A DNA stretch of 64,000 nt from Escherichia coli. Lineage in GTDB: Bacteria > Pseudomonadota > Gammaproteobacteria > Enterobacterales > Enterobacteriaceae. The notes beneath the pieces are model-generated. The model was not told the DNA's origin. It did no database searches and saw only the letters and a program-made list of their open reading frames with translations. Numbering within the stretch: position 1 is the first letter of the stretch; each line of letters begins with the position of its first letter. The DNA is taken from NCBI RefSeq assembly GCF_045037415.1, contig NZ_CP173438.1. One strand, written 5' to 3'. Position numbers and translations under genes: made by a program. Positions 23,495-26,401 of this stretch are shown here, in pieces.

Positions 23495-26401
23495 CTATGC
23501 CTGTTCAACGTTATACCAGTTACCAGAAATGTATTTTTGTAGTGGTCGTGACACCATCCAGTCATCTCCATCAACCTCACCAATAATTTGCAATCCTGTT
23601 GTCACATGACCATTACCTGGTTCGCAAAGTCCTCCGCGATATAATGTGTCAGAACGTCTGCCTCCCAGACGCACATTTCTGATAAAAGAACTATTCAGGT
23701 AATCATTTAAGTTTGACCCCCAGCACCCACCAAATATATTTCCATCGGTGTTATAACGGACGCCACCCGCAATAAGAGCACCCGGTGAAATAAAGGATTT
23801 ATCGTTCGGGTTAAACTGCCATAAAGCATCATTACCGCCATCGCCACGCATATGAATACATGGAACCGGAAATCCATACTGTTCTGTCAGTAAATACCCA
23901 AAGCTGACCGCGCCGGGATAGCCCTGTCCATTGCGAATGGACAAGCCCTTAACTATCGGCACGTAAAGACCACCAGGAGTGGGATTCCAGGCAAACTGCG
24001 TCTGAACAAAAGGCGCGGTGGCATTATTCAACTGGTCTGCAAATGCGCCACTTCCATCAGGAATTATTCCCTGATGAATATATGCAACCCGCTTATAAAA
24101 ATCAGCAGATGCGGGTTGAAGCCCAAATGCCAGTTGTCCATTTGAATAGAATAAAAGGACACCGTCGCCGCCCTGTTTAATACCAGTGTCGTTATCTCCG
24201 AGAGTAATGGAATTACCGCCCAGTGCGTTATCTGTACCAAGCGCCAGCCCACCATCAATTTTGGCCCCGTGGCTGACAGATATAGCACCTGTTCTCAGAT
24301 TTATAGCGAATGGCCTTAATGGGCCGATATCACCGTTTTCGCCTTGTCCTTCAGCCGTCGGAATGAAATGAAGAAAATCTTCTGAACGACGGAAAATAAG
24401 ACCGAAGGCATCATTGAAAATTCGCAGCGCATTCACCGTGCCAATTTTCAGTTCTCCGGTCATTTTATCGCCGGAACGCTGAACGGCGTTACCAGCCTTG
24501 TTTACCGTTTCCTGTAAACCGAGGTATTCGATAACGGCGGCAACGGTCGATTTCGCAAGAATATCCCGCCCAACTTTTGTCAGGGTTGCCAGACTGGCAA
24601 CATCATTCCCCGTAAAATACGGAAACCTGTCTGCCGCAGTAGCAAGCCCGGCCAGCGCCGTCAGGGTGGCATCTTTCGGTTGCTTACCCGCAAGCGCGCT
24701 AGTCATGGTGGTCGCAAAATTCGGGTCGTTGCCCAACGCCGCAGCCAGCTCGTTCAGCGTATTCAGTGCGTCAGGCGACGAGTCCACGAGGGCAGCGATC
24801 GCAGCCATAACATAAGCCGTGCTTGCGATTTGGGTATTATTCGTTCCCTGTCGCGCAGTTGGTGTTGTTGGCGTTCCGGTCAGTGCAGGACTATTTAAGG
24901 GCGCTTTCTTGTTCGTTTCACCCATTACCGCCTTAACCGCTTTTGGCGTTGCCGCCAGTGACTCGGAAGTGCTGTTGGTCGCACTGCTGAGCTGTACTAT
25001 CCCCTTTTTCGTCGTGCTCGCATCCTCAAGCGCCACGGCGGATGCAATATCCTCTGCCCGTTTTGCCGCTGTCTCGGCGCGCGTTGCCGCGGATTCCGCC
25101 GTACTTTTGCTCTGAGCTGCCGCCGTCGCACTGCCAGCTGCCTCTGTCGCCTTCGTGGATGCCGTCGTGGCGCTGCCCTTTGCTGCTGACGCCTGTCTGG
25201 TCGCCTCATCTTTTGAAGCAGACGCAGATGATGCCGATGACGCCGCTGAACTGGCTGACGATGCGGCTGCCGCCTTAGAGGAAGCAGCATTGTCTGCTGA
25301 AGTCTTTGCATTTGTTTCAGAGGTTTTTGCTGCAGAAGCAGACCTCGCTGCTGCAGTGGCTTGCTCAGTGGCTTTGCCAGCCTTCGTTGTGGCTGTTGAA
25401 GCGGATGATGCGGCGCTTTCTGCCGATTTTCCGGCGGCGGTGGCACTGGCTGAGGCCTGCCCGGCACTTGTTGACGCGGCACTGGCAGATAATGCAGCCG
25501 CTGTTTTTGAACCTGCCGCAGCTGAGGCGCTCTGTCCCGCTGCTGTTTCAGAAGACTTAGCGTTCGTCTCGGACGTTTTTGCCGCCTTCGCGGAATTTCC
25601 TGCCGCCGTTGCCGAGGAAGCTGCACTACTGGCACTTGATGATGCATTCGTTTCTGAAGATTTCGCTGCCTCTTTTGAGGCCGCCGCACCCCGTGCCGAG
25701 GTGGCAGCTTCTGACGCCTTCGTGGTCGCTGTGGATGCAGAAGTGGCTGCCGATTTTTGTGATGCTGCGGCATTCGTTTCTGACGTTTTCGCGGCACTGG
25801 CGCTGGTAGCTGCCGCGCTTTTTGATGACTCTGCAGCAGCAGCACTTTTTGCTGCTTCACGGGCCTTTGTCGATGCCGTTCCTGCGCTGGAAGACGCTGA
25901 CTGAGCCGACGACGCGGCCTGTCCGGCTGACGTGCTGGCGGCACGTGATGAGGCTGCAGCATCGGTTGCATGAGTTGCCGCCTCGCTGGCTGATGCACTG
26001 GCATCGCTGGCTGATTTTTTCGCGGCTGCCGTATTCTGTGCAACCGCGGAGGCGTTACGTGACACCTCTTCTACCATCTGCTCAAAGCGGCGCAGTGCCT
26101 CCGGTCGTACATCATCCTCCGTCATGGCACCGAGAAAATCATTCAGCGTACCTGGTCTGGAACCTTCATAGACGGTAATGGTCCCGGCATGTGAAGGCGG
26201 AAAACCTTCAACCAGCAGGGTGACGCTGTACTGACCATGCTCAACATCCATGCTGTAACGTCCGGCTTCATCCGGATTTTCAGAGGCCACCGTGTTCACC
26301 ACCACCGTGCTGCTGGTTCGTCTGGCCTTCAGCACAATGGTGCAGTTCTGTACTGGTTTTCCTGTGCCATCTTTAAGCACGCCAGAAATTTTTACTGTCA
26401 T
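23495..26401 (-). CDS. side tail fibre protein
   Basis: 968 aa; Ala/Ser/Thr-rich repetitive central domain and conserved C-terminal receptor-binding motifs; follows lom as in lambda stf. Confidence 0.8.
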   Translation of the reverse strand: MTVKISGVLKDGTGKPVQNCTIVLKARRTSSTVVVNTVASENPDEAGRYSMDVEHGQYSVTLLVEGFPPSHAGTITVYEGSRPGTLNDFLGAMTEDDVRPEALRRFEQMVEEVSRNASAVAQNTAAAKKSASDASASASEAATHATDAAASSRAASTSAGQAASSAQSASSSAGTASTKAREAAKSAAAAESSKSAAATSASAAKTSETNAAASQKSAATSASTATTKASEAATSARGAAASKEAAKSSETNASSSASSAASSATAAGNSAKAAKTSETNAKSSETAAGQSASAAAGSKTAAALSASAASTSAGQASASATAAGKSAESAASSASTATTKAGKATEQATAAARSASAAKTSETNAKTSADNAASSKAAAASSASSAASSASSASASKDEATRQASAAKGSATTASTKATEAAGSATAAAQSKSTAESAATRAETAAKRAEDIASAVALEDASTTKKGIVQLSSATNSTSESLAATPKAVKAVMGETNKKAPLNSPALTGTPTTPTARQGTNNTQIASTAYVMAAIAALVDSSPDALNTLNELAAALGNDPNFATTMTSALAGKQPKDATLTALAGLATAADRFPYFTGNDVASLATLTKVGRDILAKSTVAAVIEYLGLQETVNKAGNAVQRSGDKMTGELKIGTVNALRIFNDAFGLIFRRSEDFLHFIPTAEGQGENGDIGPLRPFAINLRTGAISVSHGAKIDGGLALGTDNALGGNSITLGDNDTGIKQGGDGVLLFYSNGQLAFGLQPASADFYKRVAYIHQGIIPDGSGAFADQLNNATAPFVQTQFAWNPTPGGLYVPIVKGLSIRNGQGYPGAVSFGYLLTEQYGFPVPCIHMRGDGGNDALWQFNPNDKSFISPGALIAGGVRYNTDGNIFGGCWGSNLNDYLNSSFIRNVRLGGRRSDTLYRGGLCEPGNGHVTTGLQIIGEVDGDDWMVSRPLQKYISGNWYNVEQA
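24509..24534. promoter_or_regulatory. gix/hix-like invertase crossover site (proximal, inside fibre gene)
   Basis: TTCCTGTAAACCGAGGTATTCGATAA, inverted relative to site at 21428; encodes IEYLGLQET in the fibre. Confidence 0.6.

What the first reader, a model, noticed from the sequence alone, without database searches (positions are those of the whole stretch)
24900..26050. Long Ala/Ser/Thr-rich quasi-repetitive domain in the side tail fibre, generating spurious overlapping ORFs
Residues about 120-430 of the fibre consist of imperfect short repeats (e.g. ...AAKTSETNA...SASAA...). The DNA is GC-rich and repetitive enough that both an alternative minus frame (348-aa Arg/Pro/Gln-rich ORF) and the opposite strand (249-aa Ala-rich ORF) stay open. 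Such repeats are hotspots for slippage and length variation in fibre shafts.
Basis: seen in the sequence. Interest (0 to 1): 0.3.

Follow-up and report, generated by a model that had tools for sequence, protein, structure and literature searches.

The report
Coiled-coil shaft of prophage tail fibre
The Ala/Ser/Thr-rich stretch is the already-described coiled-coil shaft of an E. coli prophage side tail fibre, 51 seven-residue repeats long, and the two extra reading frames over it are harmless by-products of its amino-acid composition.

Summary

**What it is.** Residues 103-459 of the 968-aa side tail fibre gene stf (window 23495-26401, minus strand) form 51 heptads in one unbroken register. The consensus is A-x-x-A-x-x-S. 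There is no Pro and almost no Leu/Ile/Val. This matches the "PCoil" trimeric alpha-helical coiled coil described for PF08400-type prophage fibres (PMC3368898) and the proximal coiled coil of Ur-lambda Stf (PMC12617516). K-12 stfR carries the same 51-heptad coil.

**The repeat is in the protein, not the DNA.**
- Tandem Repeats Finder reports only two tiny arrays.
- In-phase heptads are about 43% identical in DNA.
- The longest exact repeat is 14 nt, no longer than in codon shuffles.

**The overlapping ORFs.** The 348-aa and 249-aa ORFs follow from the composition. Synonymous-codon shuffles keep those frames open at least as long in 52% and 57% of trials. The 348-aa frame has pN/pS of 2.4-3.2 and is interrupted in relatives. 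The antisense frame shows no selection of its own.

**Length variation.** It is real but quantised. Close relatives differ by 7, 105, 112 or 224 residues, always whole heptads. Slippage is limited to rare 1-3-codon changes, mostly at a (GCT)3 run.

The parts
23495..26401 (-). stf, side tail fibre gene (968 aa)
   Evidence: ORF. Pfam phage_tail_N, E = 5.2e-70. 100% identical to the 'prophage tail fiber N-terminal domain-containing protein' of ST131 strains such as EC958.
26120..26401 (-). N-terminal collar domain, residues 1-94, which attaches the fibre to the tail
   Evidence: Matches the Ur-lambda Stf chain 9E7M_Ta over residues 1-94 of both, E = 2.9e-47. The 9E7M/9MGH entries are identified in PMC12617516.
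25025..26095 (-). Heptad-repeat (PCoil / proximal coiled-coil) shaft, residues 103-459: 51 heptads in one register, consensus A-x-x-A-x-x-S
   Evidence: Autocorrelation and Fourier analysis. Heptad layout. Position composition: a = Ala 57% (Lys and Glu 11% each), d = Ala 78%, g = Ser 61%. A register-tracking Viterbi model finds a single segment, residues 104-457. AlphaFold2 monomer model has three helices covering all but about 39 of 357 residues, mean pLDDT 66.
25832..25843 (-). GCT GCT GCT GCA run (Ala187-190): the one recurrent micro-slippage site
   Evidence: Codons shown. Variants with +1 Ala (P0055) and -1 Ala (P0068, P0093, P0102) map here.
25221..25249 (.). Imperfect 9-nt x 3.2 array encoding SAASSASSAS (residues about 385-394)
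   Evidence: Tandem Repeats Finder, score 37. Variant P0089 lacks 3 residues here.
24997..26043 (-). 348-aa Arg/Pro/Gln-rich ORF in the +1 frame of stf: spurious
   Evidence: No Pfam hit. A stop in this frame needs T at sense codon position 2, and only 6 such codons occur in residues 111-467. 52% of synonymous shuffles stay open at least as long. pN/pS is 2.4-3.2. Stops interrupt it in relatives L005 and L004.
25155..25904 (+). 249-aa Ala-rich antisense ORF: spurious
   Evidence: No Pfam hit. 57% of synonymous shuffles give an open run at least as long. It shares wobble positions with stf, so its low pN/pS is uninformative. stf-synonymous transversions are antisense-synonymous 62% of the time observed, against 64% expected.
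24905..25081 (-). Domain following the coil, residues 441-499, similar to phage Mu tail fibre protein S
   Evidence: PDB 5YVQ_A, E = 3.7e-19, query 441-499 against chain 91-150. The motif KGIVQLSSATNS is conserved in relatives and was used as the C-terminal anchor.
23498..24508 (-). C-terminal receptor-binding part of stf, residues about 632-968, lying inside an invertible-segment remnant
   Evidence: 99.1% identical to a protein of Yersinia phage vB_YpM_3 over residues 624-968. 33-38% identical to T4-type gp37. PDB 6F45 long tail fibre tip, E = 3.5e-4. Inverted repeat arm at 24509-24540.
22952..23479 (-). tfa, tail fibre assembly chaperone
   Evidence: Pfam Caudo_TAP, E = 9.1e-35.

Best explanation
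The region encodes the proximal shaft of a lambda-type side tail fibre (Stf). It is a parallel, probably trimeric, alpha-helical coiled coil of 51 uninterrupted heptads (residues 103-459), about 53 nm long if it rises 0.148 nm per residue.

The core positions a and d are almost all Ala, and position g is Ser. This makes it an 'alanine/serine zipper' with no Pro and almost no Leu/Ile/Val. The coil links the N-terminal collar domain, which docks on the tail, to the distal receptor-binding part. Its role is to set how far the fibre reaches.

The repeat is kept at the protein level. The DNA copies have diverged to about 43% identity.

Because the domain is built from GCN, TCN/AGY, ACN, AAR and GAR codons, stop codons are almost impossible in the +1 frame and rare in one antisense frame. 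That is why two long ORFs overlap it without being genes.

Alleles differ by whole heptads, mostly blocks of 15-16. This preserves the coiled-coil register.

Shown here: periodicity, single register, homology of the flanking domains, predicted helix, the origin of the alternative ORFs, purifying selection in the stf frame, and heptad-quantised length differences. Inferred from published work on homologues: the trimeric state and the role as a reach-setting shaft.
For: 1. **Heptad periodicity.** z = 9.6 at lag 7, persisting to lag 56. Ala has a period of 3.5. There are 51 heptads in one register.
2. **Composition.** 357 residues: A 134, S 83, T 39, Pro 0. Residues 117-452 contain one Leu, one Ile and one Val.
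3. **Flanking domains.** PF08400 N-domain. Residues 1-94 match the Ur-lambda Stf collar 9E7M at E = 3e-47. That paper describes a linker at residues 92-101 followed by a proximal coiled coil at 102-393 in a trimeric fibre.
[quoted passage not shown] Its circular-dichroism spectrum is alpha-helical with a reversible transition near 49 C. It appears as a stalk in electron microscopy, and its length differences are multiples of seven.
5. **Structure prediction.** The AlphaFold2 monomer is helical at H2-136, H141-262 and H296-356.
6. **Selection.** 141 of 205 variable sites fall at codon position 3. pN/pS is 0.13-0.18 in the stf frame.
7. **Length differences.** Against ten relatives whose aligned coil is at least 83% identical, the total differences are 105, 112 or 224 residues, with individual gaps of 7, 105, 112 and 224. 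All are multiples of 7, and the gaps sit at several different apparent positions. The anchor-to-anchor distance is in phase with the query in 23 of 39 representatives (chance 1/7). It rises to 27 of 39 when the first occurrence of the C-terminal motif from the regex scan is substituted by hand.
8. **Alternative ORFs.** Explained by composition.
Against: - No experimental structure covers this stretch, here or in lambda. In the Ur-lambda paper the coil beyond about residue 120 is an AlphaFold3 model fitted into cryo-ET density.
- The oligomeric state cannot be tested with a monomer prediction. The model has only moderate confidence (pLDDT 66), and its fold-back turns are probably artefacts.
- An all-Ala/Ser core is unusual and weakly hydrophobic.
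- Rare natural variants with +1, -1 or -3 residues break the register, so the register constraint is not absolute.
- Some more distant homologues show one register shift, or an anchor distance that is out of phase.
- The prophage is degraded: an IS element sits in lom, gene J is frameshifted, and the invertase is truncated. The fibre may no longer be made in this strain.
Confidence: 0.9

Rival explanations
1. The domain is a DNA-level repeat that acts as a slippage or contingency locus, changing fibre length at high frequency.
For: - Small in-frame indels exist among near-identical alleles. They are +1 or -1 Ala at a GCT GCT GCT GCA run and at an AAA run, and -3 residues at an imperfect 9-nt array.
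- Homologues vary greatly in coil length, from about 5 to 51 heptads.
Against: - Tandem Repeats Finder finds nothing above score 45.
- The longest exact repeat is 14 nt, no longer than in codon shuffles.
- In-phase DNA identity is about 43%.
- 113 of 119 near-identical variants have identical coil length.
- The coil aligns without gaps at 88-98% DNA identity to K-12 stfR and to O157, O26 and O113 alleles.
- The large differences are blocks of 15-16 heptads between diverged alleles, not stepwise unit changes.
Confidence: 0.05
2. The Ala/Ser/Thr-rich stretch is an intrinsically disordered or silk-like (beta) low-complexity linker, not a coiled coil.
For: - Ala/Ser/Thr-rich low-complexity segments are often disordered linkers (general knowledge).
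- The core lacks the usual Leu/Ile/Val.
- AlphaFold2 confidence is only moderate, and residues 254-298 of the model fall below pLDDT 50.
Against: - Strict periodicity of 7 and 3.5 in one phase over 357 residues; a beta or silk-like repeat would show a period of 2.
- Zero Pro and only 11 Gly.
- The model is almost entirely helical.
- Length differences among close relatives come in whole heptads.
- Published circular dichroism and electron microscopy on the homologous PCoil domain show a cooperative, reversible alpha-helical rod.
Confidence: 0.03
3. One or both overlapping ORFs (348 aa in the +1 frame, 249 aa antisense) are real overlapping genes.
For: - Both are long.
- The antisense frame has a low pN/pS of 0.18-0.27 and stays open between stf residues 167 and 430 in six of the seven alleles compared; the seventh (L004) lacks the stop at 430.
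Against: - Open runs at least as long arise in 52% and 57% of synonymous-codon shuffles.
- Neither ORF has a Pfam match.
- The +1 frame has pN/pS of 2.4-3.2 and acquires internal stops in L005 (97.7% identical) and L004.
- The antisense frame shares wobble positions with stf. stf-synonymous transversions are no more often antisense-synonymous than expected: 62% observed against 64% possible.
Confidence: 0.02

Closest known systems
PCoil domain of EHEC prophage collagen-like tail-fibre proteins EPclA-D (Ghosh et al. 2012, PLoS One, PMC3368898)
   Same: - It sits directly after the PF08400 (PfN) domain.
- It has the Ala-x-x-Ala/Ser-x-x-Ser heptad and almost no Leu/Ile/Val.
- Length differences are multiples of seven.
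- It is predicted, and was measured by circular dichroism, to be an alpha-helical trimeric rod.
- The same features were found here.
   Different: - The coil here is much longer: 357 residues, against roughly residues 101-245 in EPclA/B.
- It is followed by Mu-S-like and gp37-like domains, not by a collagen Gly-X-Y domain and a PfC domain. No collagen repeat is present; there are only 11 Gly in the domain.
Ur-lambda side tail fibre gpStf (774 aa; Sci Adv 2025, PMC12617516; PDB 9E7M, 9MGH)
   Same: - The collar domain is homologous (E = 3e-47).
- The order is the same: collar, then a short linker, then the proximal coiled coil, then a distal gp37-like receptor-binding part.
- The genomic position is the same: J, lom, stf, tfa.
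   Different: - In the lambda-length representative (P0147, 774 aa; its identity as lambda Stf was not verified) my register model finds about 226 in-register residues. The paper gives residues 102-393 for the lambda proximal coil. Here there are 357 residues.
- The coil sequences are only about 55% identical when aligned.
- The distal half here lies in an invertible-segment remnant and differs from lambda's.
E. coli K-12 Rac prophage StfR
   Same: The coil DNA is 90.7% identical over all 1071 nt without a gap. It therefore has the same 51 heptads and the same register.
   Different: The C-terminal part and total length differ: the annotated stfR CDS spans 3363 nt, against 968 aa here. Upstream, lom is cut by an IS5-family element in K-12 and by ISEc12 here.
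Alanine-zipper trimeric coiled coils such as the Ala-rich region of Braun's lipoprotein Lpp-56 (recalled from memory, not tested here)
   Same: Small Ala residues occupy the a and d core positions of a parallel trimer.
   Different: There is no sequence relationship, and Lpp is only 56 residues long. This is offered only as a structural analogy.

Membership tests
Lambda-type side tail fibre (Stf; PF08400-type prophage tail fibre) | N-terminal PF08400 collar domain | tested here: met
   Pfam E = 5.2e-70, residues 1-134. PDB 9E7M Stf chain E = 2.9e-47.
Lambda-type side tail fibre (Stf; PF08400-type prophage tail fibre) | Gene order J, lom, stf, tfa in a lambdoid tail module | tested here: met
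   J domains at 29806-33278, Ail/Lom at 29280-29738, and Caudo_TAP at 22952-23479. The EC958 annotation agrees.
Lambda-type side tail fibre (Stf; PF08400-type prophage tail fibre) | Distal receptor-binding part related to T4 gp37 | tested here: met
   tblastn identity of 33-38% to T4-type gp37 over residues about 613-907. PDB 6F45, E = 3.5e-4.
Lambda-type side tail fibre (Stf; PF08400-type prophage tail fibre) | Assembles as a trimer on the virion | not testable with these tools
   Only inferred, from Ur-lambda cryo-EM and EPclA ultracentrifugation.
PCoil trimeric coiled-coil domain (PMC3368898) | [quoted passage not shown] | tested here: met
   Lag-7 z = 9.6. Position 1 is Ala 57%, position 4 is Ala 78%, position 7 is Ser 61%. 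The array starts at residue 103.
PCoil trimeric coiled-coil domain (PMC3368898) | Near absence of Leu/Ile/Val | tested here: met
   One Leu, one Ile and one Val in residues 117-452.
PCoil trimeric coiled-coil domain (PMC3368898) | Length differences between alleles are multiples of seven | tested here: met
   Gaps of 7, 105, 112 and 224 residues against ten close relatives. 23 of 39 anchor distances are in phase as computed, and 27 of 39 when the first motif occurrence is used.
PCoil trimeric coiled-coil domain (PMC3368898) | Alpha-helical conformation | tested here: inconclusive
   The AlphaFold2 monomer is almost entirely helical, but mean pLDDT is only 66 and it comes from a 7-sequence alignment. 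Experimental circular dichroism exists only for the homologue.
DNA tandem-repeat / slippage (contingency) locus | Near-identical head-to-tail DNA units | tested here: not met
   Tandem Repeats Finder scores are at most 45. The longest exact repeat is 14 nt, as in shuffles. In-phase DNA identity is about 43%.
DNA tandem-repeat / slippage (contingency) locus | Frequent unit-number variation among otherwise identical alleles | tested here: not met
   113 of 119 near-identical variants have the same length. The other six differ by 1-3 codons.
Overlapping (dual-coding) genes | The alternative frame is conserved and under its own purifying selection | tested here: not met
   The +1 frame has pN/pS of 2.4-3.2 and is interrupted in relatives. 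The antisense frame shows no excess of synonymous change beyond what stf imposes. Both are expected from composition.
Collagen-like prophage fibre (EPcl) | Gly-X-Y triple-helix repeat domain | tested here: not met
   No Pfam collagen hit. Only 11 Gly in the 357-residue domain, and the periodicity is 7, not 3.

The most novel reading that the evidence does not exclude
Coil length in this fibre family is not free to drift. It falls into a few preferred classes: in these data about 18-21, 35-36 and 51 heptads. The classes are reached by in-register block changes of 15-16 heptads at many different positions. This would mean that shaft reach is an adaptive, discretely tuned trait, for example matched to the thickness of the O-antigen or capsule layer that the fibre must cross. 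The recurring AAK(T/S)SETNA motif may serve as the recombination anchor. Only the rule that differences are multiples of seven has been published.
Probability: 0.25. Interest if true: 0.35.

Novelty: already known. Interest (0 to 1): 0.12.

Why it matters
It matters little beyond correct annotation.

- The region should be labelled as the coiled-coil (PCoil) shaft of Stf.
- The 348-aa and 249-aa ORFs should not be called as genes.
- More generally, Ala/Ser/Thr-rich heptad domains remove stop codons from the +1 frame and from one antisense frame, so long 'shadow' ORFs over them are expected.
- The heptad-quantised length classes could help anyone engineering fibre length or host range in lambdoid phages. 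The principle itself is already in the literature.

Tried and rejected
- **Tandem-repeat and dispersed-repeat searches on the DNA.** Nothing beyond what the composition gives. I rejected a DNA-repeat or slippage origin.
- **Higher-order repeat within the coil.** I looked for a recent 15-16-heptad duplication that would explain the length classes. Identity is flat across all heptad offsets (protein 0.30-0.45, DNA 0.33-0.46), so there is no recent internal duplication.
- **pN/pS as a test of the antisense ORF.** It is uninformative because that frame shares wobble positions with stf. I replaced it with a conditional test on stf-synonymous changes.
- **tblastn against phage genomes.** The low-complexity filter masks the coil, so this search said nothing about coil-length variation.
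- **Full-length protein search.** It returned only near-identical 968-aa proteins. That was useful for micro-indels but not for diversity, so I ran the 50%-identity representative search with the N-domain instead.
- **First N-terminal anchor pattern.** The regular expression missed many sequences. I replaced it with anchor mapping by local alignment. In four proteins that mapping picked a second copy of the KGIVQLS motif, and I corrected these by hand from the regex positions.
- **AlphaFold2 monomer.** It gives helices that fold back on themselves. I treated the turns as monomer artefacts and ran no fold search.
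Full report
**1. What is at the coordinates**

The window carries a lambdoid prophage tail module next to trpEDCBA. The ORF at 23495..26401 (minus strand, 968 aa) is 100% identical to the 'prophage tail fiber N-terminal domain-containing protein' of E. coli ST131 strains such as EC958.

- It has the PF08400 N-terminal domain, E = 5e-70.
- Residues 1-94 match the Stf collar chain of the Ur-lambda tail-tip structure 9E7M at E = 3e-47 (entry identified).
- Upstream lie gene J and a lom gene interrupted by an IS21-family element. Downstream lies a Caudo_TAP tail-fibre assembly gene.

**2. Checking the observation**

- Residues 121-450 are 67-80% Ala+Ser+Thr in every 30-residue block.
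- The 348-aa ORF (24997..26043, minus, +1 frame of stf) and the 249-aa antisense ORF (25155..25904, plus) exist.
- GC rises to 0.57-0.62 in the domain. GC3 is the same inside and outside (0.47 vs 0.46), so the GC-richness comes from codon positions 1-2 of Ala, Ser and Thr codons.

The claim that the DNA is repetitive fails.

- Tandem Repeats Finder reports only a 9-nt x 3.2 array and a 12-nt x 2.1 array, both scoring below 50.
- Dispersed repeats are 60-82% identical to their reference copy.
- In-phase DNA identity between heptads is about 0.33-0.46 at every offset.
- The longest exact repeat in 1071 nt is 14 nt, and 14% of codon-shuffled controls match or exceed it.

**3. What the repeat really is**

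Residue autocorrelation shows sharp peaks at lag 7 and every multiple up to 56 (z = 7.5-9.6). All other lags are at or below expectation. The Ala signal has a Fourier period of 3.5.

Written in rows of seven, residues 103-459 form 51 heptads with no phase shift.

| Heptad position | Main residue |
|---|---|
| 1 (a) | Ala 57%, otherwise mostly Lys or Glu |
| 4 (d) | Ala 78% |
| 7 (g) | Ser 61% |

A register-tracking Viterbi model finds one segment, residues 104-457. The domain has no Pro, 11 Gly, and one each of Leu, Ile and Val in residues 117-452. An AlphaFold2 monomer model built from a 7-sequence alignment is three long helices (H2-136, H141-262, H296-356) with mean pLDDT 66. Its fold-back turns are the usual artefact of modelling one chain of a homo-oligomeric rod.

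This is a coiled-coil signature with an Ala/Ser core. At 0.148 nm per residue, 357 residues give about 53 nm.

**4. It is already described**

- Ghosh et al. 2012 (PMC3368898) studied EHEC prophage fibre proteins with the same PfN (PF08400) domain. They named the low-complexity region that follows it 'PCoil'.
  - Prediction programs favour a trimer.
  - The circular-dichroism spectrum is alpha-helical, with a sharp reversible transition near 49 C.
  - Electron microscopy shows a stalk.
- The 2025 Ur-lambda structure paper (PMC12617516) describes gpStf as a collar (residues 1-91), a linker (92-101), a proximal coiled coil (102-393), a hinge, and a distal gp37-like part. Each fibre is a trimer.

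The present domain starts at the same place, residue 103, and is longer. The coil DNA of K-12 Rac stfR aligns without gaps at 90.7% identity, so StfR has the same 51 heptads. 3,591 of 5,426 complete E. coli genomes hold a copy covering at least 80% of the coil.

**5. The overlapping ORFs**

Within the coil, the +1 frame has no stop between stf codons 110 and 468. One antisense frame has none between codons 167 and 430.

The reason is mechanical. A +1-frame stop needs T at sense codon position 2, which only Leu, Ile, Val, Phe and Met codons supply. Only six such codons occur in residues 111-467. In the open antisense frame, Ala codons read as Ala codons. By my codon reasoning, a stop there needs a Tyr codon, or a Gln/His codon preceded by a T-ending codon.

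- Shuffling synonymous codons while keeping the protein gives open runs at least as long as observed in 52% (+1) and 57% (antisense) of 1000 trials.
- Across seven gapless alleles, 141 of 205 variable sites are at stf codon position 3. pN/pS is 0.13-0.18 in the stf frame and 2.4-3.2 in the +1 frame.
- The 348-aa ORF is cut by stops in a 97.7%-identical allele (L005) and in the O113 allele (L004).
- The antisense frame shares wobble positions with stf, so its low pN/pS (0.18-0.27) carries no information. Among stf-synonymous transversions, 62% are antisense-synonymous, against 64% of all possible ones. The frame therefore has no constraint of its own.
- Neither ORF has a Pfam match.

**6. Length variation**

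*Near-identical alleles.* Among 119 near-identical protein variants, 113 have exactly the same coil length. Six differ:

- Four differ by +1 or -1 Ala at Ala187-190, encoded by GCT GCT GCT GCA.
- One differs by -1 at an AAA run near residue 148.
- One differs by -3 residues at the imperfect 9-nt array.

This is ordinary micro-slippage at low frequency, and it breaks the heptad register.

*More diverged relatives.* In representatives found with the N-domain, the coil ranges from about 5 to 51 heptads, usually as one in-register segment. Alignments to ten relatives that are 83-95% identical in the aligned coil give gaps of 7+105, 105, 112 or 224 residues. These are always whole heptads, and they sit at several different apparent positions.

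The distance from the N-domain to the conserved KGIVQLS motif is in phase with the query in 23 of 39 representatives, against a chance rate of 1/7. It becomes 27 of 39 when the first motif copy is used for four proteins that carry the motif twice. These proteins are related, so the counts are not independent events.

There is no sign of a recent internal duplication. Some block boundaries coincide with copies of the AAK(T/S)SETNA motif: residues 245-253 and 357-365 are 16 heptads apart, and their DNA is about 70% identical. Unequal or mosaic recombination between diverged alleles, filtered by selection for an intact register, therefore seems more likely than slippage. This step is inference.

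**7. Verdict**

The object is a known domain (PCoil, the proximal coiled coil of Stf) in a very common E. coli prophage gene, so novelty is 'already known' and interest is low. The only mildly open point is why lengths cluster in classes 15-16 heptads apart.

**8. Seen in passing**

- The distal third of stf, together with tfa, an inverted second tfa and an alternative fibre C-terminus, lies between 32-nt inverted repeats. From memory, these resemble Gin/Pin-type crossover sites.
- The adjacent invertase is reduced to a 68-aa N-terminal fragment, so the segment is probably frozen.
- ISEc12 splits lom.
- Gene J carries a 1-nt deletion relative to EC958 and is otherwise identical.

Noticed in passing
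window 21422-21453 and 24509-24540, and the 3055 nt between them: A 32-nt inverted repeat, 84% complementary. From memory, its sequence (TTCCTGTAAACCGAGGTATTCGATAA) resembles the crossover sites of Gin/Pin/Cin DNA invertases. One arm lies inside stf at residues about 621-632. Between the arms are the stf C-terminal receptor-binding part, tfa (22952-23479, minus), an inverted second tfa (22388-22921, plus) and an alternative fibre C-terminus ORF (21601-22386, plus; gp37_C hit). This looks like a Mu G-segment / e14 P-segment type host-range switch.
   Followed up: partly
window 21191-21397 (-): A 68-aa ORF (…LIGYVRVSTNDQNTDLQRNAL…) that looks like the N-terminus only of a serine recombinase/invertase. 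RefSeq annotates the equivalent in EC958 as a partial 'recombinase family protein'. The invertible segment is therefore probably locked in its present orientation.
   Followed up: partly
window 26863-29165 (-), flanked by lom fragments (29280-29738 and about 26550-26780): An IS21-family element (istA 513 aa, istB 249 aa), annotated as ISEc12 in EC958, is inserted into the lom gene between J and stf. In K-12 Rac the lom gene upstream of stfR is also truncated, next to an IS5-family element.
   Followed up: partly
window about 31876-31877, within gene J (29806-33278, -): Gene J appears as two overlapping ORFs of 489 and 708 aa. Aligned to EC958 J (3474 nt, intact), the window has a single 1-nt deletion and no other difference. 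This is either a frameshift that inactivates the central tail fibre in this strain or an assembly error.
   Followed up: yes
window 24509-24540, the crossover-site arm inside stf; protein variant P0091: One database variant (974 aa) has a 6-residue duplication, LGLQEN-LGLQET, exactly at the peptide encoded by the putative crossover site. This may be a scar of recombinase activity.
   Followed up: no
L007 10001-11497 (EC958 annotation of the same gene): RefSeq/PGAP annotates stf in EC958 as a pseudogene 'missing C-terminus', ending at codon 499. The 2907-nt ORF is nevertheless intact and identical to the window, and other genomes annotate it in full. This is an annotation inconsistency.
   Followed up: no
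window 18400-21100: The prophage end next to trpA carries a class I SAM-dependent methyltransferase (20324-20992, plus), a Rha-family regulator (19014-19586, plus) and several tail-fibre-assembly gene fragments (for example 19998-20267, minus). EC958 also has a partial ompW here, which suggests that the prophage replaced or disrupted ompW.
   Followed up: no
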